Below are positions 1 to 15,294 of a stretch of DNA of 15,294 nt, piece by piece. The stretch is from a virus (Duplodnaviria > Heunggongvirae > Uroviricota > Caudoviricetes), in the IMG/VR virus record IMGVR_UViG_2529292718_000014, positions 1 to 15,294 of that record, one strand, 5' to 3'. The notes under the pieces are model-generated. The model ran no database searches. It had not been told where the DNA came from and saw nothing but the letters and a program-made list of their open reading frames with translations. Position 1 is the first letter of the stretch. The number at the start of each line of letters is the position of its first letter. The position numbers were made by a program, and so were the translations under genes.

Positions 1-1119
1 TCAAATAACCAACTTAACCCATTCCTGACCTCGAGTATCGTTATAGCGATCGGTGGTTGCCTGGACTTTATGTCCTAGTAATGTTTTTGTATCGATACCC
101 TGTGCACGGTACAGCCGTTCTGATAGAGAGCGTTGTTCATGAAATGTTGGCGGAGTTTTTCCTGCTGGTGGAATTATCCCAGCCAGATCCCGTGCTTTGG
201 CAAAGTAGTCGCTCAGGTTGTCTTTACTCATCGGCTTCGGTTGTTTCTGGTGCCGACTATGGATTAGATATGGACTTAATATTCTGTCTCGGCACCCATC
301 AATAACTTCTTTTAACGTTATCCCAATGGCATCACAGCGTAGTGTAAGCGGTAACGCCAGACGCATTCCGGTTTTTCCCTGGGTGATATGCAAGTGTTCG
401 TTCCACACATCTGAAAAACGCATGTGGCAAATGTCATCACGGCGCTGACCAGTAACAATCGCAAGAAGCATTGCGTTACGGATAAAGTGTTTTTCAGGCG
501 TTGCATTGTAAATTTTTTGCCAGTCTTCCATGGTGAGCCTGGCTCTGGTTACTTTAGGGATCGGTTTACGGGTAGCCTCCGGAGGATTCCATCCAGGAGG
601 AACTTCCCCTGCATGCTGTGCTTCTTTATAAATATCAACCCATAATCCGCGATTTACTCTCGCTGTGCTGACCATGTCTTTATCCAGCCACTCATCCAGT
701 ATTAATGCAAAGTCTCTTACTTCCAGTTCTTTCAATGGGTGGTTTCCCAGACGGGAAACCAGGTATGCAGCCATTCGAGCTTTTTCTTTGTGAGTTGTAG
801 CTGCAATATCTCCATTTTTCAGTCGCGTGTCCTGTATTTTCAGATATCGATCAACCCATGCCTTTAATCTGATACCCCGACGTTTTGTTGCTGACGGACT
901 TTCATCAATTTTACGCATGAAATATTCAGCTTCTGCTGCAGCTATTCGCTGATTGGCTGTGGAAGCGATTTTTTCTGCCTTACCTTTGTCTGTTCCTAGT
1001 CCGTGAAATTTTCCAGTCACAGGATTTTTATACTGGTAGTAAACTCTGCCAGTTCTGCGATCAAACTTTTCGTAAAGACCGGCTACGTCAGTGCTGTTTT
1101 TTCGTGGCCTCGGTGACAT
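1..1119 (-). CDS. int: Lambda-family tyrosine recombinase (phage integrase), 372 aa, complete
   Basis: Complete ORF with stop at 1-3. C-terminal block HEQRSLSERLY...LLGHK...TDRYNDTRGQEW matches the lambda Int catalytic region (HxxR, terminal Tyr) as I recall it. AAGGAG Shine-Dalgarno about 10 nt upstream of the ATG at 1117-1119. Start overlaps the upstream xis-like ORF by 32 nt, as in lambda xis-int. Confidence 0.93.
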   Translation of the reverse strand: MSPRPRKNSTDVAGLYEKFDRRTGRVYYQYKNPVTGKFHGLGTDKGKAEKIASTANQRIAAAEAEYFMRKIDESPSATKRRGIRLKAWVDRYLKIQDTRLKNGDIAATTHKEKARMAAYLVSRLGNHPLKELEVRDFALILDEWLDKDMVSTARVNRGLWVDIYKEAQHAGEVPPGWNPPEATRKPIPKVTRARLTMEDWQKIYNATPEKHFIRNAMLLAIVTGQRRDDICHMRFSDVWNEHLHITQGKTGMRLALPLTLRCDAIGITLKEVIDGCRDRILSPYLIHSRHQKQPKPMSKDNLSDYFAKARDLAGIIPPAGKTPPTFHEQRSLSERLYRAQGIDTKTLLGHKVQATTDRYNDTRGQEWVKLVI

Positions 1120-1366
1120 GAGTTAAAATCTCCTTCAGTGCATCATCATCGCCAGTATGAATTTCCGGCGCAATTCCCGTTTCACCAGGCCCAACAAATA
1201 CTGCTCGGCGATCTATCAGCCAACGCCCACGAATTTTTTGTGGTCTTGGAACGATGTATCCTAGTTTTCCGTATTTCACCAGGGTAGTGTTTGTTATTGG
1301 GAGACTGAACCGTTTTGGTTTCCACTCATCGAGCGTTATCAGGTATTGTTCGCTCATGGCTATCAC
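1088..1366 (-). CDS. xis: Excisionase-like small DNA-binding protein (92 aa; true start may be the Met at 1357)
   Basis: Small ORF immediately upstream of and overlapping int. N-terminal motif YLITLDEW resembles lambda Xis YLTLQEW (recollection). Position and size are typical of an excisionase. Confidence 0.75.
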   Translation of the reverse strand: MIAMSEQYLITLDEWKPKRFSLPITNTTLVKYGKLGYIVPRPQKIRGRWLIDRRAVFVGPGETGIAPEIHTGDDDALKEILTHVTEATKKQH

Positions 1367-1418
1367 TCCGGAACGCGCCAGTTGCAGAATACCAACGACA
1401 ACTGGCGACGGTTGAACA

Positions 1419-3383
1419 TTAAAAATCAGCCTGACTCGGGATCAGTTTTTGCCAGATAGCTGAAATGTATTTTGCCTGGTAACGAGCGTCATCAAGTGCA
1501 TTATGGCGCTCACCTTCGAATGGAATAGCCGTTCTGGCATCGAAGTCCAGGGCTTTTCCTAATTCAACGATTGTGCGTACATCGCGATCGTTGCAGTAGC
1601 GCCACGGGCAGGGGATCCCCTGTCGTTCGTATGAGCGGCGTAAAATCACGTTGTCGAAGTTGTCTCCATTTCCCCAGACCTGAACAAAAAATTCACCGGA
1701 GTTTTCGTCGATAAATTCCCGCAATTGCAGTAGTGCATCATCTAACGGGATTTCATCGGTCATAATGGCAGACTGCGCTTCACGTGATTGCTTCAGCCAC
1801 CATTTAATGACGTCACGATCAATGACTCCGCCAGCAGTATCCAGATCGATGGTCTTGCTAAATTCCGGTCCCATATCTCCGGTTTGTGGATCGAAAAATA
1901 TTGCGCCTATTGAGATAATCGGGGCATCGGGATTTTTTCCCATGGTTTCAAGGTCGATCATCAGATGAATCCCCGCTCTGCTGGTGGATGTGAGATTATG
2001 ATGACCGTTCGCCTTAATTAAGAGATCTGTCGCCTCGCCAGTTTCATTATCGCTGGCGTGGTCCTGAGCGCTGCCAGCATTCTCCTTGTGTGGATGTTCA
2101 GCGCCTTCCATTTCCTCCGAATCGTCTTCCTGAACTTCAACTTGGTTCTCGTCATCGAATGTTTCCTGGTATGTTGCGTCGCCCATCACCGCGCCACAAT
2201 CAGGGCAGTTGCCGCCACCGCTCTGACCGCAGACGGTGCAGACTTTTTCCGGTTCCTGTTGCGCTACTGGTTCGGATTGTTTCGTTTTTGGCTCTTTTCG
2301 TTGCACATTTGGGCTGTTTTGTTCCGCTTTCTGGTCGTTCTGTTCCGTTTCTTGCTGGTTCTGGTTCACAGAATCGCGGGTTTCAATCCCCTTCACCCAT
2401 TTCGGATCATTCGGATCGCTAATCCCTGCAACAAATTCACCACGTGATACTGCAAGCAGTTCATCGGCGTCAGGCTGGCTGATATTGGCTGCCTGCATAA
2501 TTTTGTTTACTTCGTCAGCGGTAACTTTTACCGGCTCTGGTTGTGCGGTCGTGTCAGATGCACCAGTATTTTGTTGTAAACCTGAGTATGTACCGTTTTT
2601 GCGGGCGAAATATTCTTCTTTCGTGATTTCAGTAGCCCCGGCAGCCAGCGCCTTATCCAGACCAGAAAGTTTGTTTGCGCGACCGTATTTTTCGCCATCC
2701 TTGTCGGTGAAGAGGAAGTAGAACGGCCCCTCACGTTCTACAGATGGTTCGACTTCCACTTTGCATTCGGTTTTTTCGTTGTCCGGAATTGCCGTTTCCA
2801 CTGCATCAGTTTCTGGTACTGGCGACGAGAGAGTATCAGTTGCGCTCTGATTTGTTCCTTCATCTTCAAACACGCCCTTTGTAGTCAGGTATTCAGTAAT
2901 GTATTTGTTCAGTGCCACAGGGTCTTTGTGAATGTCGATCGGACGTTCACGGACAAGGCCAAAAATAGTCTGGCGGTCGTAGCGAAGGGCATCAGGCTGT
3001 TTGCGCATTGATGCCGAGATACGCTTCCAGTCTTCGCGGTCGTTGTCGATAACTTCATTTTTTGCCCAGCGATGGATGCTGCCGTCAATGTTTCCGGCAT
3101 CCACATCACCAGGCCAGAGAGCGTAGGCCAGTTCGTCATCCAGTGTTTTCCATGTCTGCTTGTATTCGCGATGAATGGCAGCAATGACCGGGTTGATATT
3201 TTCCTGCTGAGTTTTCAGTGTGCTGTCGGTTGACTCTGGCGCGGGCGAGATCAACAGCAGACGTGTATTTTCCGGTTTCCTTGCGTTCACCTTCGCGACG
3301 TTTTTTCCAGATGCGCATCTCTGCCTGAATTTCGGGCCATTTAGCTCCAGGCTTACATTTATGCTTAACCCACCCGATGGCAT
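1419..3383 (-). CDS. DEDDh-type 3'-5' exonuclease domain protein with Cys-rich zinc-ribbon-like motif (654-aa ORF; probably the C-terminal part of a larger disrupted gene, reminiscent of DLP12 exoD)
   Basis: C-terminal region has DnaQ-like motifs: MIDLETMG (Exo I D-x-E), a later acidic motif, and HNALDDARYQ (Exo III H-x4-D). CTVCGQSGGGNCPDCG suggests a zinc ribbon. The N-terminal 248 nt overlap another protein-like frame (3136-3654), implying a frameshift. The resemblance to exoD is from memory and its position next to xis, not a search. Confidence 0.72.
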   Translation of the reverse strand: MPSGGLSINVSLELNGPKFRQRCASGKNVAKVNARKPENTRLLLISPAPESTDSTLKTQQENINPVIAAIHREYKQTWKTLDDELAYALWPGDVDAGNIDGSIHRWAKNEVIDNDREDWKRISASMRKQPDALRYDRQTIFGLVRERPIDIHKDPVALNKYITEYLTTKGVFEDEGTNQSATDTLSSPVPETDAVETAIPDNEKTECKVEVEPSVEREGPFYFLFTDKDGEKYGRANKLSGLDKALAAGATEITKEEYFARKNGTYSGLQQNTGASDTTAQPEPVKVTADEVNKIMQAANISQPDADELLAVSRGEFVAGISDPNDPKWVKGIETRDSVNQNQQETEQNDQKAEQNSPNVQRKEPKTKQSEPVAQQEPEKVCTVCGQSGGGNCPDCGAVMGDATYQETFDDENQVEVQEDDSEEMEGAEHPHKENAGSAQDHASDNETGEATDLLIKANGHHNLTSTSRAGIHLMIDLETMGKNPDAPIISIGAIFFDPQTGDMGPEFSKTIDLDTAGGVIDRDVIKWWLKQSREAQSAIMTDEIPLDDALLQLREFIDENSGEFFVQVWGNGDNFDNVILRRSYERQGIPCPWRYCNDRDVRTIVELGKALDFDARTAIPFEGERHNALDDARYQAKYISAIWQKLIPSQADF

Positions 3384-4363: not shown

Positions 4364-4921
4364 TATCGCGTCCTCAACAATGAATTTTGTGATGCGGTGC
4401 CTAGTGCCTCCAGGTGACGTTAACCAGTTAACAATTAACGCCGGATACAGAGAACCCACCCATAACACTGTTTTTGGTTTTAACTGTTCCGCGTGCGCTT
4501 AGCCGCATTCACCGCATCACAAAATTCACTTTAAAAAGGGCGGCAGAGCAGTCACGGAGTAAAACTGATACCGCTAAACGCCACCAGAAAATTGATAACA
4601 GAGGGCGTTGCAGCGGGGTTGTCACTTAAGCGTATGGTCAACCTGACAACCCGGTGTCCTCAACGGGGAAGGAATAACCCCGCCATACTTACCGCCGCGC
4701 CATTTCGCGGATTGCCACAACCGGAAGCGCACGGTCGAATTAAATTTAACGACACCGTACAGACAGAATAACTTCGCCGTGCGCTTTCGCGTTATGTCCT
4801 GACTTTTCAGGGATATATCCTTCCAGTAAACTGCCAGTGCCGGATGCTCACCCGTGTCCGGCGCACGCACTCCACCTGACCCGTGGAGAACTCCTTAATT
4901 ACCAACCCTCAGGAGGGTGAA

Positions 4922-9658: not shown

Positions 9659-10705
9659 ATGACTAGTGAATCAAATGTTAATGCTCTGATAGAGCGTCAA
9701 TTCGAAGTTGCTGACGGTAATGTAAGAAGTCTTAATTTGCCGAAATATGATAAATATACAGTATGTAATTTACGGGGAGGCATTGGTAAGACATCTTTAA
9801 CTTTTAATCTGTCATATTTGGCGGATAACGCATTAATCGTGGATACGTGCCCGCAAGGAAATTTATCATATTTTTTTGACAATAATTATGCATCTTCGTC
9901 TAGCACAACTGCAAATGACCTCTTAATGCCTTATTTTGTTCCAGGGCTTGGATTTGCAACGCGTGCTGCAAAGCTAGTATCATCAACTAATGCTTGGTTT
10001 GCGGGCAAGAATAACTATTTTATTCAATCTGATAGTCAACTTTATCTTCTACCTACGCAAATGGCGAATGCTCTGGCTCAAGCCAGAACAATTTCTGGGG
10101 CTACTCAGCAGGTTGTTATTGATACAATTCTTTTTTCTCTGAAGAAAGAAATAGCCAGAGAAATGGTTGAAACTGGTACTACAAAAGCGTTAATTGATAC
10201 ATCACCTTTTTTCTCTGGAGCGACGCATTTATCTTGGCATGCAACAGATGCTTTAATAGTTCCAGTGAGGACAGATCAGCAATCGATTAATTCATTAAGA
10301 TTACTTATTGATACTCTGACTAAACCAACATCAGAATTTAGAAAGATAATGCCGTCTGATGGCCATACACCAAAAATTCAGATGGTGGTTATTACCCATT
10401 GCGGATGGTCAACAGTGGCAGGAGCAAGGAATAAACCAAATCAACAGACAAAAATGTACATCGAAGCTGTAAGAGAGGTAATTCGACAAAATATTAGTAA
10501 TTTTACAACAGATGATCCTAATAATCACATTGTGATTCTTGATGATTTTCTGGGTAGTGGCAGAATGTCAAGTGCTAAGTCTAAACCATTAGAGTTGTTA
10601 AATCCAGGAGATGCAATGACTGTGAATAGAGTTAGGACATCCGTGAATTTATCTGTTAACAAAATAAAAAATGAATTAAAGTTCATTCACAACTCCATAT
10701 GGTAA
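9659..10705 (+). CDS. Orphan ParA/MinD-family P-loop ATPase (348 aa) with variant deviant Walker A
   Basis: NLRGGIGKTS matches the deviant Walker A KGGxGK[ST], with Arg in place of the signature Lys. DTCPQGNLS matches the ParA D-x-D-P-Q-G-N motif. LIDTSP is a Walker B-like motif and ALIVPVRTDQQSINSLRLL a ParA-like segment. C-terminal extension of about 100 aa. The region is visibly AT-rich by eye. No ParB-like gene is adjacent. Confidence 0.8.
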   Translation: MTSESNVNALIERQFEVADGNVRSLNLPKYDKYTVCNLRGGIGKTSLTFNLSYLADNALIVDTCPQGNLSYFFDNNYASSSSTTANDLLMPYFVPGLGFATRAAKLVSSTNAWFAGKNNYFIQSDSQLYLLPTQMANALAQARTISGATQQVVIDTILFSLKKEIAREMVETGTTKALIDTSPFFSGATHLSWHATDALIVPVRTDQQSINSLRLLIDTLTKPTSEFRKIMPSDGHTPKIQMVVITHCGWSTVAGARNKPNQQTKMYIEAVREVIRQNISNFTTDDPNNHIVILDDFLGSGRMSSAKSKPLELLNPGDAMTVNRVRTSVNLSVNKIKNELKFIHNSIW

Positions 10706-10862
10706 ATGACATTTTATTTGAATAATCTGGATTGATAATTATTGTTACATTAATTGTTATTAATTCTAAATAATCCTATCGTTCTTCAGGATGAGATAAT
10801 TTATATTTATTTGTGTTGTGATTTTTTGAATTTATTTAGGTTTATGAACTGTTTTAGATGAA

Positions 10863-10982
10863 ATGAATCATGAATACGAAATTGTTGCGGTACTGATAAC
10901 GAGGAAAGACCTCTGCGAGGTACGAATCCGAACCGGCCAGACGGAGGTCGCTGTCTTCACAGCTTACGAACCTGAGGAGTAA
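10863..10982 (+). other. GC-rich element: candidate 39-aa small ORF or 5' part of a structured small RNA
   Basis: ATG at 10863 to TAA at 10980-10982 encodes MNHEYEIVAVLITRKDLCEVRIRTGQTEVAVFTAYEPEE with a weak Shine-Dalgarno. The segment is much GC-richer than its AT-rich flanks. It is followed by a perfect 8-bp hairpin with GAAA loop (10991-11010) and the terminator at 11050-11072. Confidence 0.3.
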
Positions 10983-11049: not shown

Positions 11050-11072
11050 TAACCCGCTTCGGCGGGTTTTTT
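11050..11072 (+). terminator. Rho-independent terminator (copy A of an identical 23-bp element)
   Basis: TAACCCGCTTCGGCGGGTTTTTT: 6-bp GC stem ACCCGC/GCGGGT, UUCG loop, T6 tract. An identical 23-mer occurs at 12885-12907. Confidence 0.7.
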
Positions 11073-11073
11073 A

Positions 11074-11120
11074 TTGGTTGACAAAATTATGAATATGCAC
11101 CAATATCTTGGTTGACAAAA
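11074..11120 (+). promoter_or_regulatory. Two direct TTGGTTGACAAAA repeats (34 bp apart) upstream of the cassette; candidate promoter -35 elements and/or operator
   Basis: 13-bp perfect repeats at 11074-11086 and 11108-11120, each containing TTGACA. The -10 matches at 17-bp spacing are weak (CAATAT, GGATTA), so an operator role is also plausible. Confidence 0.4.
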
Positions 11121-11155
11121 GTCGTTTTTTGCACGGATTAGGCGGAGAAGTGTCT

Positions 11156-11749
11156 ATGCAGAACCATCCATTCCCTTGGGAGTTCTTTCCTGAGTTAACA
11201 GAGGTGCGTTTAACCATTATAGCTGAGGAGTTGCTCAGGATACAGGATATTACTCATGAGTTATTGTCATCGCCCTATGATGATAATTACACTCGTGGTG
11301 GTTGTACATTTGGGCGTCAGCGGCAGGCGTTGCTACAAATGTGCGTACGAAAGACATATGACTGGTTAAGACTACTTAATCCTGGCATGGATCTTACGTT
11401 TTCAATTGGGAATGTCCCTATTCGTTTCTTTACTGATGACGCAGATAACCCCAAGAAACGCGGTTTTTTCAAAAGAAATGATGCTGATCGACTCTTTGAG
11501 TCAGAGGAGACTACTCCAACTATGCATCGCTTTGTGGTTGAAAAGCCTGAATTTGAAGGCGAGGGTGGTAGAGTCATTTTTAATGGCTATAACGTGTTTG
11601 GTGAGATCGTGTCAACTTGGACATATGGTGCGGACCGTGTTGTTATGCTGAACTCTGTCGATGATGTACCTCCAGCACCGGTACCTATCGAACTAGAACC
11701 TATCAGTGCGTCTAAGACTGAGAAGGAAAAGAAACAAAATAGCAAATAG
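11156..11749 (+). CDS. Hypothetical protein (197 aa), first gene of the accessory cassette
   Basis: ATG at 11156 with GGAG 8 nt upstream; the TTG start in the ORF track lies inside the upstream repeat and is unlikely. Protein-like composition with an acidic, Pro-rich C-terminal tail. No recognisable catalytic motif or family. Confidence 0.7.
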   Translation: MQNHPFPWEFFPELTEVRLTIIAEELLRIQDITHELLSSPYDDNYTRGGCTFGRQRQALLQMCVRKTYDWLRLLNPGMDLTFSIGNVPIRFFTDDADNPKKRGFFKRNDADRLFESEETTPTMHRFVVEKPEFEGEGGRVIFNGYNVFGEIVSTWTYGADRVVMLNSVDDVPPAPVPIELEPISASKTEKEKKQNSK

Positions 11750-11759
11750 TGGGTGAAAT

Positions 11760-12881
11760 GTGTTTAACGGTACTAATTTAAGACTTGCTCGTCTGTATCA
11801 CGAGCTATCTCTGGAGCAGGTTGCTGAGAAGGTTGAAAAAACACGCCAGTATGTACAGCGACTGGAGTCTGGTTCAGCTACTCCATCCCCAGAGCTTATA
11901 AATAAATTAGCCGAGGTTTTGCGCGTGAAGCCCGCCTTTTTCGAAGGGCAGGAACATTCTCCTGTTAATGAAGAGATTGTACATTTTCGTAAACGCGCCT
12001 CGACAAGGATGTCAACGAAGCTATCAACACTCGCTAAGGCTGAGTTTTATCGTCGTTTTATTGATGTATTTGAAGATAACCTTAATTTGTCACCTGTTCG
12101 ATTTCCTGAATTTCGTGTCCATACACAAGAAGATATCGAGCGAGCGGCAGAAAAATGTCGTATTGAGTGGGGCTTAGGCTTTGGCCCAATTGAAAATATG
12201 ACTCGCCTTGCCGAGAAACTTGGGGCGTTTGTTACTTCATTTGACTCCGTTTCGGATGAAGTAGATGCACTGTCTGTTCCTCTACGAAGGCCTTTTATTG
12301 TTCGAAATACAGCTAAAAATTCACCTTGTAGGCAACGCTTTGATATTGCTCATGAGGTTGCCCATTTGATTCTTCATGAAGGAATTTCTACTGGGGATAG
12401 ATTAACTGAATCCCAGGCAAACCGTTTTGCCTCTGCTCTGTTGCTTCCCAGAACGTCGATGGCGAAATATTTTCCAAGACCTGTGGGGGGGAGGATAAAT
12501 TGGCAGGGACTAAGCCAATTTAAGTTGACATGGAAAGTAAGTAAGGCTGCCATTGTTTACAGGGCTCATCAATTAGGACTTTTGACTGATGAGCAGTACA
12601 GAACTGCATTTATGGGGTTGAAACGGAAAGGGGAAGCTATTGATGAAAAAGAAGATTATCTAATCCCTCATGAGCGTCCTGAGTTATTCCGTCGGGCTTT
12701 ATCGTTTTTATTTGAAGAGTTAGGATACGACCCACAGCGTATAGCTGATGAAATGGATATAGAAGTGGACATTTTTTATGAGTTAGTAGGAGATGATCTT
12801 CCTGCGGTTCATGAACTGCCAGGAAGTGGTGATGTTGTTTCACTACAATCTTACCGAACTCTTAGAGGCAAAATTCACTAG
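11760..12881 (+). CDS. XRE-family HTH fused to ImmA/IrrE-type (COG2856, M78-like) zinc metallopeptidase domain, 373 aa
   Basis: N-terminal HTH (LRLARLYHELSLEQVAEKVEKTRQYVQRLESG). Central HEXXH motif in RQRFDIAHEVAHLILHEG, followed by a downstream acidic region typical of ImmA/IrrE proteins. Starts 10 nt after the 197-aa gene, so likely co-transcribed. Followed by terminator copy B. Confidence 0.85.
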   Translation: MFNGTNLRLARLYHELSLEQVAEKVEKTRQYVQRLESGSATPSPELINKLAEVLRVKPAFFEGQEHSPVNEEIVHFRKRASTRMSTKLSTLAKAEFYRRFIDVFEDNLNLSPVRFPEFRVHTQEDIERAAEKCRIEWGLGFGPIENMTRLAEKLGAFVTSFDSVSDEVDALSVPLRRPFIVRNTAKNSPCRQRFDIAHEVAHLILHEGISTGDRLTESQANRFASALLLPRTSMAKYFPRPVGGRINWQGLSQFKLTWKVSKAAIVYRAHQLGLLTDEQYRTAFMGLKRKGEAIDEKEDYLIPHERPELFRRALSFLFEELGYDPQRIADEMDIEVDIFYELVGDDLPAVHELPGSGDVVSLQSYRTLRGKIH

Positions 12882-12884
12882 GCA

Positions 12885-12907
12885 TAACCCGCTTCGGCGG
12901 GTTTTTT
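12885..12907 (+). terminator. Rho-independent terminator (copy B, identical 23-mer)
   Basis: TAACCCGCTTCGGCGGGTTTTTT, identical to 11050-11072. Begins 4 nt after the stop of the HTH-peptidase gene. Confidence 0.7.
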
Positions 12908-12982
12908 GTTTTACGTATTCTGGTTTACAATCTACAGGCCAGCCTGAACAACTGGCACCTGCTGCGCCAGCAGAGAAAACCG

Positions 12983-13256: not shown

Positions 13257-13691
13257 GTGCGGGTATTACTTCGACCTGTTCTGGTACCGGAACTCGGGCT
13301 GGTTGTCGTTAAGCCAGGTCGTGAATCCATGCAGGTATTCCATAACGGCAGGGTACTGGTGGAGCCGGAACCGAAAAGCATGCGTAATCTGCCGTCCGGG
13401 GTCGTTCCTGCCGTTCGCCAGCCGCTGGCGGAGGACAAAACATTGCTGCCGTTTTTCAGTAACGCACGGGTAATTCGTGCTGCTGGTGGTGCTGGTGCAT
13501 TGTCTGACTGGCTGTTGCGCCATATTAAATCCTGCCAGTGGCCACACGGCGATTATCATCACAGCGAAACCGTTATTCACCGATATGGTACCGGCGCAAT
13601 GGTGTTGTGCTGGCACTGCGACAACCAGCTGCGTGACCAGACATCCGAATCACTCGAGCAACTGCTCATCAAAACCTGTCAGCATGGATGA
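13257..13691 (+). CDS. Hypothetical nin-region protein with Cys/His cluster (144 aa; GTG start, or internal Met)
   Basis: GGAGG 5 nt upstream of the GTG at 13257. Motif C-x-W-P-H-G-D-Y-H-H…C-W-H-C-D suggests metal binding. Its stop overlaps the next ATG (ATGA). Confidence 0.55.
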   Translation: MRVLLRPVLVPELGLVVVKPGRESMQVFHNGRVLVEPEPKSMRNLPSGVVPAVRQPLAEDKTLLPFFSNARVIRAAGGAGALSDWLLRHIKSCQWPHGDYHHSETVIHRYGTGAMVLCWHCDNQLRDQTSESLEQLLIKTCQHG

Positions 13692-14305
13692 TTGACGTCA
13701 TCGGTCACGCAATAAGCGGTACGCAGGAGCGTGAATTATCTCTGGCTGAATTATCCTGGTGGGCGGTCCGCAATCAGCTGGCGGACGCGCTACCGGAAGC
13801 GGTATTACGTCGCTCGCTGGGATTACCAGCGGAAAAAATCTGCTCGGTGTACCGCGAAAGCGACATCGTACCGGGAGAGCAGACCGCCACCAGCATATTG
13901 AAACAGCGCACAAAAAATCTTGCACCGTTGCCTCACGCCCACCAGCAACAAAACCCATCACAGGAAAAGACGGTGGTAAGCATCACCGTTGATCCAGAGT
14001 CTCCGGAATCTTTCATGAAGCTGCCTAAACGTCACCGGTGGGTTAAGGAGAAATACACACGCTGGGTTAAGACACAGCCGTGTGCTTGCTGCGGTATGCC
14101 AGCCGACGATCCGCATCATCTGATTGGTCACGGGCAGGGCGGAATGGGAACCAAAGCACATGATCTCTTTGTTTTGCCTTTGTGCAGAAAGCATCACGAC
14201 GAGTTGCATACGGATACCGTGGCATTTGAAGAGAAGTATGGCTCCCAACTGGAGCTGATTTTTCGATTTATCGATCGCGCGCTGGCAATTGGTGTGCTGG
14301 CCTAA
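13688..14305 (+). CDS. nin-region protein with HNH/zinc-finger-like motif (205 aa), possibly NinG/Rap-like
   Basis: Motif [18 protein letters not shown]…[10 protein letters not shown] has a CxxC…HH…C…HH pattern. Position just upstream of Q matches the lambdoid nin region. Family name is by recollection. Confidence 0.65.
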
Positions 14306-14990: not shown

Positions 14991-15294
14991 GGTGATGCTG
15001 CCAACTTACTGATTTAGTGTATGATGGTGTTTTTGAGGTGCTCCAGTGGCTTCTGTTTCTATCAGCTGTCCCTCCTGTTCAGCTACTGACGGGGTGGTGC
15101 GTAACGGCAAAAGCACCGCCGGACATCAGCGCTATCTCTGCTCTCACTGCCGTAAAACATGGCAACTGCAGTTCACTTACACCGCTTCTCAACCCGGTAC
15201 GCACCAGAAAATCATTGATATGGCCATGAATGGCGTTGGATGCCGGGCAACCGCCCGCATTATGGGCGTTGGCCTCAACACGATTTTCCGCCAT
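14991..15294 (+). mobile_element. IS1 insertion sequence, left end (partial; continues beyond the window)
   Basis: Terminal inverted repeat GGTGATGCTGCCAACTTACTGATTTAGTGTATGATGGTG begins at 14991 and matches the canonical IS1 end, followed by insA. Confidence 0.95.
15046..15294 (+). CDS. insA: IS1 InsA (partial, 3' end outside the window)
   Basis: GTG start at 15046. Translation [83 protein letters not shown] matches IS1 InsA as I recall it. Confidence 0.95.

What the first reader, a model, noticed from the sequence alone, without database searches (positions are those of the whole stretch)
11074..12907. Two-gene accessory cassette: unknown 197-aa protein plus HTH/ImmA-IrrE metallopeptidase fusion; candidate defence or TA-like module
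Between the prophage replication module and the nin/Q genes sits a compact, apparently co-transcribed pair. The first gene (11156-11749) encodes a protein with no motif I can recognise. The second (11760-12881), 10 nt downstream, fuses an XRE-type HTH to a COG2856/M78-like zinc peptidase domain with an intact HEXXH (HEVAH). In characterised systems (ICEBs1 ImmA/ImmR, Deinococcus IrrE/DdrO) such peptidases cleave an HTH repressor on a stress signal, and Xre-COG2856 modules have been predicted to be TA-like. A fused sensor-regulator next to an uncharacterised partner, in a prophage accessory region with its own repeats and terminators, fits a stress- or infection-triggered effector module. The function of the 197-aa protein is unknown and may be new.
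Basis: partly seen in the sequence, partly recalled or inferred. Interest (0 to 1): 0.8.

Follow-up and report, generated by a model that had tools for sequence, protein, structure and literature searches.

The report
Known RosmerTA toxin-antitoxin defence cassette
The two genes are a real, self-contained insert in a prophage, but they belong to an already catalogued toxin-antitoxin/anti-phage family (RosmerTA), and this very gene pair has already been studied in E. coli, so the finding is correct but not new.

Summary
Genes at 11156-11749 (197 aa) and 11760-12881 (373 aa; XRE HTH plus M78 peptidase, HEVAH intact) form a compact operon with its own promoter and terminator. The operon is bounded by two copies of a 26-nt terminator. 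About 2,700 complete E. coli genomes have the same prophage site empty and 23 carry the cassette.

The cassette is already known. PADLOC models match both proteins end to end: RmrT at 5e-92 and RmrA at 4e-201 (RosmerTA, Millman 2022). The antitoxin is protein WP_000481765.1, the E101_02644 of Rousset et al. They showed that this prophage pair is a toxin-antitoxin module, that it makes clpP essential, and that toxin mutation T46S suppresses the effect. The Vibrio homologue Vmi480/Vmi470 is a validated toxin-antitoxin pair.

Across 26 related loci the toxin gene is always followed by an RmrA gene. All carry two conserved TTGACA-N12-TGCA boxes about 34 nt apart, which I read as RmrA operators.

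Three things remain open:
- The toxin's target is unknown. It is soluble and has no Pfam match or confident structural relative.
- The phage trigger is unknown.
- Phage defence has not been shown directly for this toxin subtype.

Novelty: already known. Interest: low.

The parts
11050..11075 (+). Left copy of the 26-nt terminator repeat (hairpin 11051-11068 plus T-run). It is the terminator of the truncated hokD gene and marks the left border of the insert.
   Evidence: The alignment with the empty site in E. coli SE11 shows a single copy there.
11078..11100 (+). Box O1, TTGACA-N12-TGCAC. The TTGACA at 11078-11083 is a perfect -35 hexamer.
   Evidence: Conserved in 26 homologous loci. Its role as a binding site for the RmrA HTH is inferred.
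11101..11106 (+). Candidate -10 hexamer CAATAT, 17 nt after the -35. The predicted transcription start is near 11113.
   Evidence: Read from the sequence. The equivalent position in homologues reads CAATAT, CATTAT, CAACAT or GATTAT. The promoter scan missed it because only 3 of 6 bases match the consensus.
11112..11134 (+). Box O2, a second TTGACA-N12-TGCAC unit 34 nt after O1. It overlaps the predicted transcription start and has no -10 of its own, so it is a likely repressor site.
   Evidence: The function is inferred.
11144..11147 (+). Shine-Dalgarno GGAG for rmrT, 8 nt before the ATG.
11156..11749 (+). rmrT, the toxin gene (197 aa). The protein is soluble and acidic (pI 5.1) with no transmembrane segment. 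The DDNYTRG motif at residues 42-48 contains T46, the site of the published suppressor. V17 (nt 11204-11206) replaces a conserved acidic residue.
   Evidence: (PDLC03929, E 5e-92, positions 1-197 of 198). Genetics from Rousset et al..
11760..12881 (+). rmrA, the antitoxin gene (373 aa, GTG start). It has an XRE HTH (nt 11778-11942), an M78 zinc peptidase (nt 12210-12566) with HEVAH (nt 12351-12365) and E217 (nt 12408-12410), and a C-terminal region of about 100 aa with no assigned domain.
   Evidence: PDLC03943, E 4e-201; 31% identity to the verified OLC-716 RmrA, E 2e-38.
12885..12910 (+). Right copy of the 26-nt terminator repeat (hairpin 12886-12903 plus T-run). It terminates the operon and marks the right border of the insert.

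Best explanation
The region is a RosmerTA-type toxin-antitoxin cassette carried as a moron, with its own promoter, two genes and terminator, in a Qin/Rac-like lambdoid prophage. rmrT encodes a soluble cytoplasmic toxin. rmrA encodes its antitoxin, a fusion of an XRE HTH, an M78 zinc peptidase and a C-terminal region.

SHOWN elsewhere for this same module (identical RmrA; a toxin whose accession differs from this one by two digits) or for its homologue Vmi480/Vmi470:
- The upstream gene is the toxic partner.
- The downstream gene neutralises it.
- Depleting host ClpP releases the toxicity, and a T46S change in the toxin abolishes it.

INFERRED here:
- The operon is transcribed from TTGACA(11078)-17 nt-CAATAT. 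It is probably auto-repressed by the RmrA HTH binding two conserved TTGACA-N12-TGCAC boxes, one over the -35 region and spacer and one over the transcription start.
- RmrA keeps RmrT harmless with the help of ClpP-dependent proteolysis. Most simply, the M78 domain and/or ClpXP removes the toxin.

INFERRED by family membership:
- When a phage infects, neutralisation fails, RmrT arrests the cell and the infection aborts, which protects the lysogen population.

The molecular target of this RmrT subtype and the phage trigger are unknown.
For: - Both proteins match PADLOC RosmerTA models end to end.
- All 90 members of the wider toxin family hit the same RmrT model.
- RmrA is 31% identical over 311 aa to the experimentally verified E. 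coli OLC-716 RmrA, E 2e-38.
- The zinc ligands H198, E199, H202 and E217 are invariant.
- RefSeq assigns identical DNA to WP_000481765.1. That is E101_02644 in Rousset et al., who report the toxin-antitoxin behaviour, the clpP dependence and the T46S suppressor. T46 lies in the most conserved motif of the family.
- Vmi480 (198 aa) and Vmi470 (362 aa) have the same gene order and a 5-bp gap. The toxin is lethal alone and is rescued by its partner.
- A 2025 preprint explicitly treats the E101 module as RosmerTA and finds clpX essential only in the Pectobacteriaceae strains that carry RosmerTA.
- The toxin gene is followed by an RmrA gene in all 26 loci examined.
- The genomic contexts are typical for defence systems: the P2 gpA/portal hotspot, an Aeromonas island with helicase and nuclease genes, and prophage accessory slots.
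- The cassette is a discrete insert: about 2,700 genomes have the site empty and 23 have it filled.
- The operator-like boxes are conserved across Gamma- and Betaproteobacteria.
Against: - I found no direct test of phage defence for this RmrT subtype. The verified RosmerTA systems (OLC-716 and phage Kita) carry unrelated toxins.
- The window's toxin carries V17 where 82% of the family has D or E, so its activity could be weakened.
- How the M78 domain contributes is untested.
- In the related three-gene system PD-lambda-2, the Xre-peptidase protein was itself the toxic component.
- RmrA binding to the boxes is inferred only from their conservation and position.
Confidence: 0.82

Rival explanations
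1. The pair is a selfish addiction (post-segregational killing) module. It stabilises the prophage and has no role in phage defence.
For: It is a toxin-antitoxin pair. It sits next to other maintenance-type genes, a ParA-like ATPase and a hokD remnant. Defence has not been shown for this toxin subtype.
Against: In Rousset et al., three of four suppressor clones had simply excised the prophage and survived, so loss of the element is tolerated. Homologues sit in recognised defence hotspots and islands, not only on elements that need stabilising. Other RosmerTA members do protect against phage.
Confidence: 0.1
2. The pair is an ImmA/ImmR-like or IrrE/DdrO-like regulatory switch. On a stress signal the M78 peptidase cleaves an HTH repressor, either its own N-terminal domain or the prophage repressor, to switch on prophage or cargo genes. 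In this reading the 197-aa protein is regulated cargo or a cofactor.
For: The HTH plus M78 domain combination and the intact catalytic motif. Domain-level similarity to CapP and CapH. Conserved operator-like boxes upstream.
Against: The prophage has its own cI/cro-type immunity region 4 kb away. About 2,700 related prophages lack the cassette altogether. The upstream gene is genetically the toxic element and the downstream gene its antidote. The pair travels as a unit into unrelated elements: P2-like phages, chromosomal islands and phage-plasmids.
Confidence: 0.04
3. The roles are reversed: the HTH-peptidase protein is the toxin and the 197-aa protein neutralises it, as reported for components B and A of PD-lambda-2.
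For: In PD-lambda-2, over-expressing the Xre-peptidase protein alone was toxic and the upstream gene rescued the cells.
Against: For this module, the suppressor mapped to the upstream gene (T46S), and silencing that gene relieved the toxicity. Vmi480 alone is lethal while Vmi470 alone is harmless. The rmrA deletion of the OLC-716 system could not be transformed. rmrA is essential in three Pectobacteriaceae strains.
Confidence: 0.03

Closest known systems
E. coli E101 prophage module E101_02645/E101_02644 (Rousset et al., bioRxiv 10.1101/2020.05.25.114553)
   Same: The antitoxin is the same protein accession, WP_000481765.1. The toxin is a near-identical allele: WP_001179380.1 there and WP_001179382.1 here. 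The variants of this cluster that I aligned are 97-99% identical, apart from one Enterobacter member at 90%. Both modules sit in a prophage.
   Different: The window's allele has V17 where the commonest allele has E17. I could not retrieve the E101 toxin sequence itself, so the exact differences are not verified.
RosmerTA of E. coli OLC-716 (Millman et al. 2022), the family's verified anti-phage system
   Same: A two-gene operon. The RmrA proteins have the same length and architecture (373 and 370 aa), share 31% identity (E 2e-38) and have the same HExxH and E..A.RFASA motifs.
   Different: The toxins are unrelated at the sequence level: BLASTP E 7, hhalign not significant, and different PADLOC models, PDLC03929 here against PDLC03935/03932 there. 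Only the OLC-716 system has been shown to block phages.
Vibrio mimicus Vmi480/Vmi470 toxin-antitoxin pair (Luo et al. 2015, PMC4671572)
   Same: Rousset et al. report 33% and 42% identity to the E101 pair. The toxin gene comes first and encodes 198 aa. The antitoxin is an HTH plus Zn-peptidase protein of 362 aa. The intergenic gap is tiny.
   Different: It lies on a mobilisable genomic island rather than a lambdoid prophage. It is used as a counter-selection marker, and no phage or Clp data are reported.
Streptococcus pneumoniae RipA/RipB (PMC12795458)
   Same: The authors assign it to the Rosmer family. Its antitoxin is an XRE plus ImmA-like protein, and its toxin makes a Clp component (ClpX) essential.
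   Different: RipA acts on the sliding clamp DnaN.
Gordonia phage Kita RmrT/RmrA (Ernits et al. 2023, PMC10440598)
   Same: It is phage-encoded, has an ImmA-type antitoxin and gives narrow-range phage defence.
   Different: The Kita toxin has a C-terminal membrane segment and depolarises the membrane. This RmrT has no hydrophobic segment: the maximum 19-residue Kyte-Doolittle mean is 0.82.
ImmA/ImmR (ICEBs1), IrrE/DdrO (Deinococcus) and CapP/CapH (CBASS regulators)
   Same: They share the M78 peptidase and XRE HTH domains. RmrA hits the PADLOC capP model at 2.8e-17 and the capH model at 5e-10, and the CapP structure 7t5t at 1.7e-7.
   Different: In those systems the peptidase and the HTH repressor are separate proteins that form a transcriptional switch for neighbouring genes. 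Here the two domains are fused, and the protein acts as the antidote to a co-transcribed toxin.

Membership tests
RosmerTA (RmrT/RmrA) | RmrA: an XRE-type HTH fused to an M78 (ImmA/IrrE) zinc peptidase, homologous to verified RmrA proteins | tested here: met
   Pfam HTH_3 and Peptidase_M78. PADLOC RmrA PDLC03943 at E 4e-201, plus 13 other RmrA models. 31% identity and E 2e-38 to the OLC-716 RmrA.
RosmerTA (RmrT/RmrA) | Intact metallopeptidase motif (HExxH plus a downstream Glu) | tested here: met
   H198, E199, H202 and E217 are invariant in the alignment of 8 RmrA proteins.
RosmerTA (RmrT/RmrA) | An adjacent, co-oriented small gene of no known domain that matches a catalogued RmrT type | tested here: met
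   PADLOC RmrT PDLC03929 at E 5e-92, covering positions 1-197 of 198. The gap is 10 nt. The pairing is kept in all 26 homologous loci.
RosmerTA (RmrT/RmrA) | RmrT is toxic and RmrA neutralises it | not testable with these tools
   Published for the same module (Rousset et al.) and for the homologue Vmi480/Vmi470. Not verified for the V17 allele in this window.
RosmerTA (RmrT/RmrA) | Protects against phage infection | not testable with these tools
   Shown for the OLC-716 and Kita systems, which carry different toxins. I found no test for this toxin subtype.
ImmA/ImmR-type anti-repressor switch | A separate HTH repressor gene whose product the peptidase cleaves, controlling the element's own excision or induction genes | tested here: not met
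   The HTH is fused to the peptidase. The cassette lies 4 kb from the prophage's cI/cro region and about 10 kb from int/xis. It is absent from most related prophages.
CapH/CapP regulators of CBASS | Located next to the CBASS genes (CD-NTase and effector) that they regulate | tested here: not met
   No such genes are in the window or in the homologous loci. The similarity is at the domain level only.
PD-(D/E)xK restriction-endonuclease-like fold (for RmrT) | A structural match to the nuclease core with a conserved D...(D/E)xK catalytic triad | tested here: inconclusive

The most novel reading that the evidence does not exclude
This RmrT subtype may be a soluble toxin of about 200 aa with a fold of its own, acting on a target different from the two known RmrT actions (membrane depolarisation and DnaN). 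The cassette may work as a guard of host Clp proteolysis: RmrA together with ClpXP continuously disposes of the toxin, and a phage that inhibits or overloads Clp, or that binds the uncharacterised C-terminal region of RmrA, releases it. The widely conserved pair of TTGACA-N12-TGCA boxes would be the RmrA operator. I did not find it described in the papers I read.
Probability: 0.3. Interest if true: 0.5.

Novelty: already known. Interest (0 to 1): 0.2.

Why it matters
Defence-finding tools would already label this cassette RosmerTA, and the same gene pair has published genetics, so it adds no new kind of system. It does have some value as a worked example:
- It shows a defence or toxin-antitoxin moron swapped in and out of a fixed slot in Qin/Rac-like prophages, after the hokD terminator, with each cargo bounded by the same terminator sequence.
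- It points to open questions for this family: what this RmrT subtype attacks, why neutralisation needs ClpP or ClpX, what the M78 peptidase cleaves, and what phage signal triggers release.
- The conserved dual operator and the E17V allele carried by enterotoxigenic strains give concrete handles for experiments.

Tried and rejected
- **Domain and sequence searches for RmrT.** Pfam found nothing for the window protein, and only scattered chance hits across 45 family members. A profile search of PDB sequences found nothing.
- **Link to the verified OLC-716 toxin.** BLASTP and hhalign were not significant and the PADLOC models differ, so I treat the two as unrelated toxin types.
- **Libraries and scans that failed.** The afdb50 fold library was unavailable. 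The deep alignment was too divergent for a genome scan, so I used the closer alignment instead. That scan used one strict peptide pattern, so the absence of Streptococcus says nothing about RipA.
- **Other collections.** No match to the cassette in 50,697 deposited phage genomes. Four plasmid or phage-plasmid matches at about 70% identity.
- **Second promoter at box O2.** Rejected because no -10-like hexamer is conserved 17 nt downstream of it in any lineage.
- **RNA genes.** Rfam and tRNA scans found nothing inside the cassette.
- **Literature.** Searches for a solved RosmerTA structure or mechanism, including PDB entry 9vzy, returned nothing usable.
Full report
**1. The observation**

They are 11156-11749 (ATG, 197 aa) and 11760-12881 (GTG, 373 aa), with 10 nt between them. 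A GGAG lies 8 nt before the first start codon.

The second protein has an XRE-type HTH at residues 7-61 and a Peptidase_M78 domain at residues 151-269. HEVAH is at residues 198-202. H198, E199, H202 and the downstream ligand E217 are invariant in eight homologues. The first protein has no Pfam match.

A 26-nt direct repeat that contains a GC hairpin and a T-run lies at 11050-11075 and again at 12885-12910. A 13-nt direct repeat TTGGTTGACAAAA lies at 11074-11086 and 11108-11120. GTTGACAAA occurs nowhere else in the window, against 0.2 occurrences expected by chance.

**2. The setting**

The window is the early region of a Qin/Rac-like lambdoid prophage. The gene order is:
- integrase, exonuclease and the DicF sRNA;
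- a cI-like repressor and a cro-like gene;
- YdaT, a replication gene and DUF977;
- a low-GC ParA-like gene and a truncated hokD;
- the cassette;
- a 90-aa gene, DUF968 and Q.

The cassette has 42-45% GC against 50-56% in the downstream flank.

A synthetic junction with the cassette removed matches about 2,700 of 5,426 complete E. coli genomes across at least 80% of its length. In these, the hokD terminator runs straight into the 90-aa gene, as in strain SE11. Only 23 genomes carry the full cassette, and those listed with a source are mostly from human hosts. In other strains the same slot holds an unrelated 130-aa gene that also ends with the same terminator sequence.

The cassette is therefore a discrete accessory insert with its own promoter, two genes and a terminator. 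It sits in a slot where cargo is exchanged. It is not a core lambdoid gene.

**3. Identity**

Both proteins match PADLOC models of the RosmerTA system from end to end. The 197-aa protein hits RmrT PDLC03929 at E 5e-92 over positions 1-197 of 198. The 373-aa protein hits RmrA PDLC03943 at E 4e-201, and also hits 13 other RmrA models.

RosmerTA was defined by Millman et al. as a Zn-peptidase antitoxin paired with a toxin of unknown function. Their verified example is from E. coli OLC-716. The window's RmrA is 31% identical to that RmrA over 311 residues (E 2e-38) and has the same architecture.

The toxins are unrelated: BLASTP gives E 7, hhalign is not significant, and the PADLOC models differ. 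This fits the published picture of one antitoxin family paired with many toxin types.

**4. This very module has been studied**

RefSeq assigns identical DNA to WP_001179382.1 and WP_000481765.1. Rousset et al. describe a prophage module in E. coli E101 made of E101_02645 (WP_001179380.1) and E101_02644 (WP_000481765.1). The antitoxin is therefore the same protein as here. Their findings were:
- clpP is essential in E101 because of this module.
- Suppressors had either excised the prophage or carried T46S in the upstream protein.
- Silencing the upstream gene relieved the toxicity.
- Moving the module into K-12 made clpP essential there, unless the T46S allele was used.

They also note 33% and 42% identity to Vibrio mimicus Vmi480 and Vmi470. 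That pair is a validated toxin-antitoxin system with the same gene order and protein sizes.

A 2025 preprint treats the E101 module as RosmerTA and reports that clpX is essential only in the Pectobacteriaceae strains that carry RosmerTA. In S. pneumoniae, the Rosmer-family toxin RipA makes clpX essential and acts on DnaN.

**5. What I added on the toxin**

The family is moderate in size. A word-indexed search found 80 clusters at 90% identity. A full profile search found 423 clusters at 50% identity at E 1e-3 or better, and most of the full-length listed hits are stand-alone proteins of about 200 aa. All 90 diverse members that I aligned hit the same PADLOC RmrT model.

The protein is soluble (no hydrophobic segment) and acidic, with pI 5.1. 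It is therefore unlike the membrane-depolarising toxin of phage Kita.

Across the family the best-conserved polar residues are D42, G48, R54, R90, P99 and R125. T46, the suppressor site, lies in the DDNYTRG motif between two long helices.

AlphaFold models (pLDDT 81.5, then 90.8 with the deeper alignment) show two long helices followed by six strands. Fold searches gave no confident relative:
- Foldseek places ThaI first at E 0.03.

Because no nuclease-type acidic triad is conserved, I do not assign a nuclease function. The target of this toxin remains unknown.

**6. What I added on pairing and context**

In every homologous locus I examined, the toxin gene is followed at once by an RmrA gene. 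There are 26 loci:
- Seven lineages came from contig look-ups and plasmid hits. They are the window, Klebsiella and Salmonella, Providencia, Proteus, Aeromonas, and two metagenomic lineages.
- Nineteen species came from a scan of GTDB representative genomes. They include Pectobacterium, Pantoea, Enterobacter, Zoogloea, Gallionella, Methylotenera, Caballeronia, Stenotrophomonas and Lysobacter.

The contexts include the P2-like gpA/portal hotspot in Proteus and Salmonella, a phage-plasmid in Klebsiella, and islands with helicase and nuclease genes in Aeromonas and in a metagenome contig.

**7. What I added on regulation**

All these loci keep the same upstream architecture, although the proteins are only 41-61% identical. 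Two TTGACA boxes lie 31-34 nt apart, and each is followed about 12 nt later by TGCA. Among the 19 GTDB loci, 16 have two exact boxes and the other 3 have a second box with one mismatch.

In the window the units are TTGACA-N12-TGCAC at 11078-11100 and 11112-11134. Only the first unit is followed at 17 nt by a -10-like hexamer: CAATAT at 11101-11106 here, and CATTAT, CAACAT or GATTAT in other lineages. The first box therefore doubles as the -35 element, and the second box sits over the predicted transcription start.

The simplest reading is that the RmrA HTH represses its own operon through these two operators. This rests on conservation and position only and has not been shown. I did not find it described in the papers I read.

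**8. Mechanism**

Shown by published genetics on this module or on close homologues: the upstream protein is the toxin, the downstream protein is the antidote, and toxicity appears when ClpP is depleted.

Inferred:
- RmrA represses its own operon.
- Neutralisation involves proteolysis by the M78 domain and/or ClpXP.
- Phage infection interrupts neutralisation and the freed toxin aborts the infection.

The last step rests on family membership. Phage defence has been demonstrated for RosmerTA systems with other toxins, and I found no test of this subtype.

One caveat applies to this copy. The window's toxin differs from the commonest allele only by V17 in place of E17, at a position that is acidic in 82% of the family. 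I cannot tell whether this weakens the toxin.

**9. Rivals**

- **Pure addiction module.** This is possible but weakened, because E101 suppressors survived loss of the prophage and because homologues sit in defence-type contexts.
- **ImmA/ImmR-like induction switch.** This is unlikely. The prophage has its own immunity region, most related prophages lack the cassette, and the pair moves as a unit between unrelated elements.
- **Reversed roles, as in PD-lambda-2.** This is contradicted by the genetics of this module and of Vmi480/Vmi470.

**10. Verdict**

The finding is already known. It is a RosmerTA system that standard defence-annotation models recognise, and its exact antitoxin and a near-identical toxin were characterised genetically in 2020-21. 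What interest remains lies in the unknown target and trigger of this toxin subtype, the Clp dependence, and the conserved operator pair.

Noticed in passing
window 11078-11100 and 11112-11134; the same architecture in L005-L014, L016-L018 and L019-L037: Two TTGACA-N12-TGCA(C) boxes 31-34 nt apart lie upstream of rmrT in all 26 loci from Gamma- and Betaproteobacteria, although the proteins are only 41-61% identical. Only the first box has a -10-like hexamer 17 nt downstream. They are probably RmrA operators. I did not find them described in the papers I read.
   Followed up: yes
window 11204-11206 (RmrT residue 17): The window's toxin, an allele seen on 145 contigs, has V17. The commonest allele has E17, other close variants have D or E, and 82% of the wider family has D or E at this position. 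It may be an attenuating change.
   Followed up: partly
window 11050-11075 and 12885-12910; L003 1590-2360; L004 1590-2420: The slot after the hokD terminator is empty in about 2,700 E. coli genomes. It holds RosmerTA in 23 genomes and an unrelated 130-aa gene, with no Pfam or PADLOC hit, in others. Each cargo ends with its own copy of the same ACCCGCTTCGGCGGGTTTTTT terminator, which suggests cargo exchange by recombination between terminator copies.
   Followed up: partly
window 9659-10705 (+), with the AT-rich stretch 10700-10880: A stand-alone ParA-like ATPase gene with very low GC (32-37%) has weak C-terminal hits to PRTase effector models (PADLOC PRTase_III-A at 1e-4, ShosT at 2e-3). It looks like a second foreign insert, and its arrival appears to have truncated hokD.
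   Followed up: no
window 10881-10982 (+): Only the C-terminal part of hokD remains (TRKDLCEVRIRTGQTEVAVFTAYEPEE). RefSeq marks it as a pseudogene in identical DNA.
   Followed up: partly
window about 13662, within 13257-14305 (+): The DUF968 gene is split into two ORFs (13257-13691 and 13688-14305) by a 1-nt deletion relative to strain 99-3165. This is either a frameshift pseudogene or a sequencing error.
   Followed up: yes
window 14991-15294: The end of the window matches IS1 (99.7% to the IS1B copy in L001). Here Q follows DUF968 directly, without the RusA gene seen in L001. No complete RefSeq E. coli genome matches the whole window (best 95% coverage at 98.7% identity).
   Followed up: partly
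window 4538-4589 (-): A DicF antisense sRNA (Rfam RF00039, 68.6 bits) is present, consistent with a Qin-type dicB region.
   Followed up: no
L001 1267-3346 and 29828-29951: In strain 99-3165 the related prophage lies between potC and potB, so it interrupts the potABCD operon.
   Followed up: no
L008 4716-6725: In a metagenome contig, a second cluster of a separate HTH gene, an M78 peptidase gene and a Peptidase_C1 gene lies just downstream of the RosmerTA pair.
   Followed up: no
PDB entry 9vzy chain A: A solved 393-aa 'HTH cro/C1-type domain-containing protein' with an N-terminal HTH and an M78 domain matches the RmrA profile at E 4e-8. It may be a structure of an RmrA-like protein. I found no paper about it.
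   Followed up: partly
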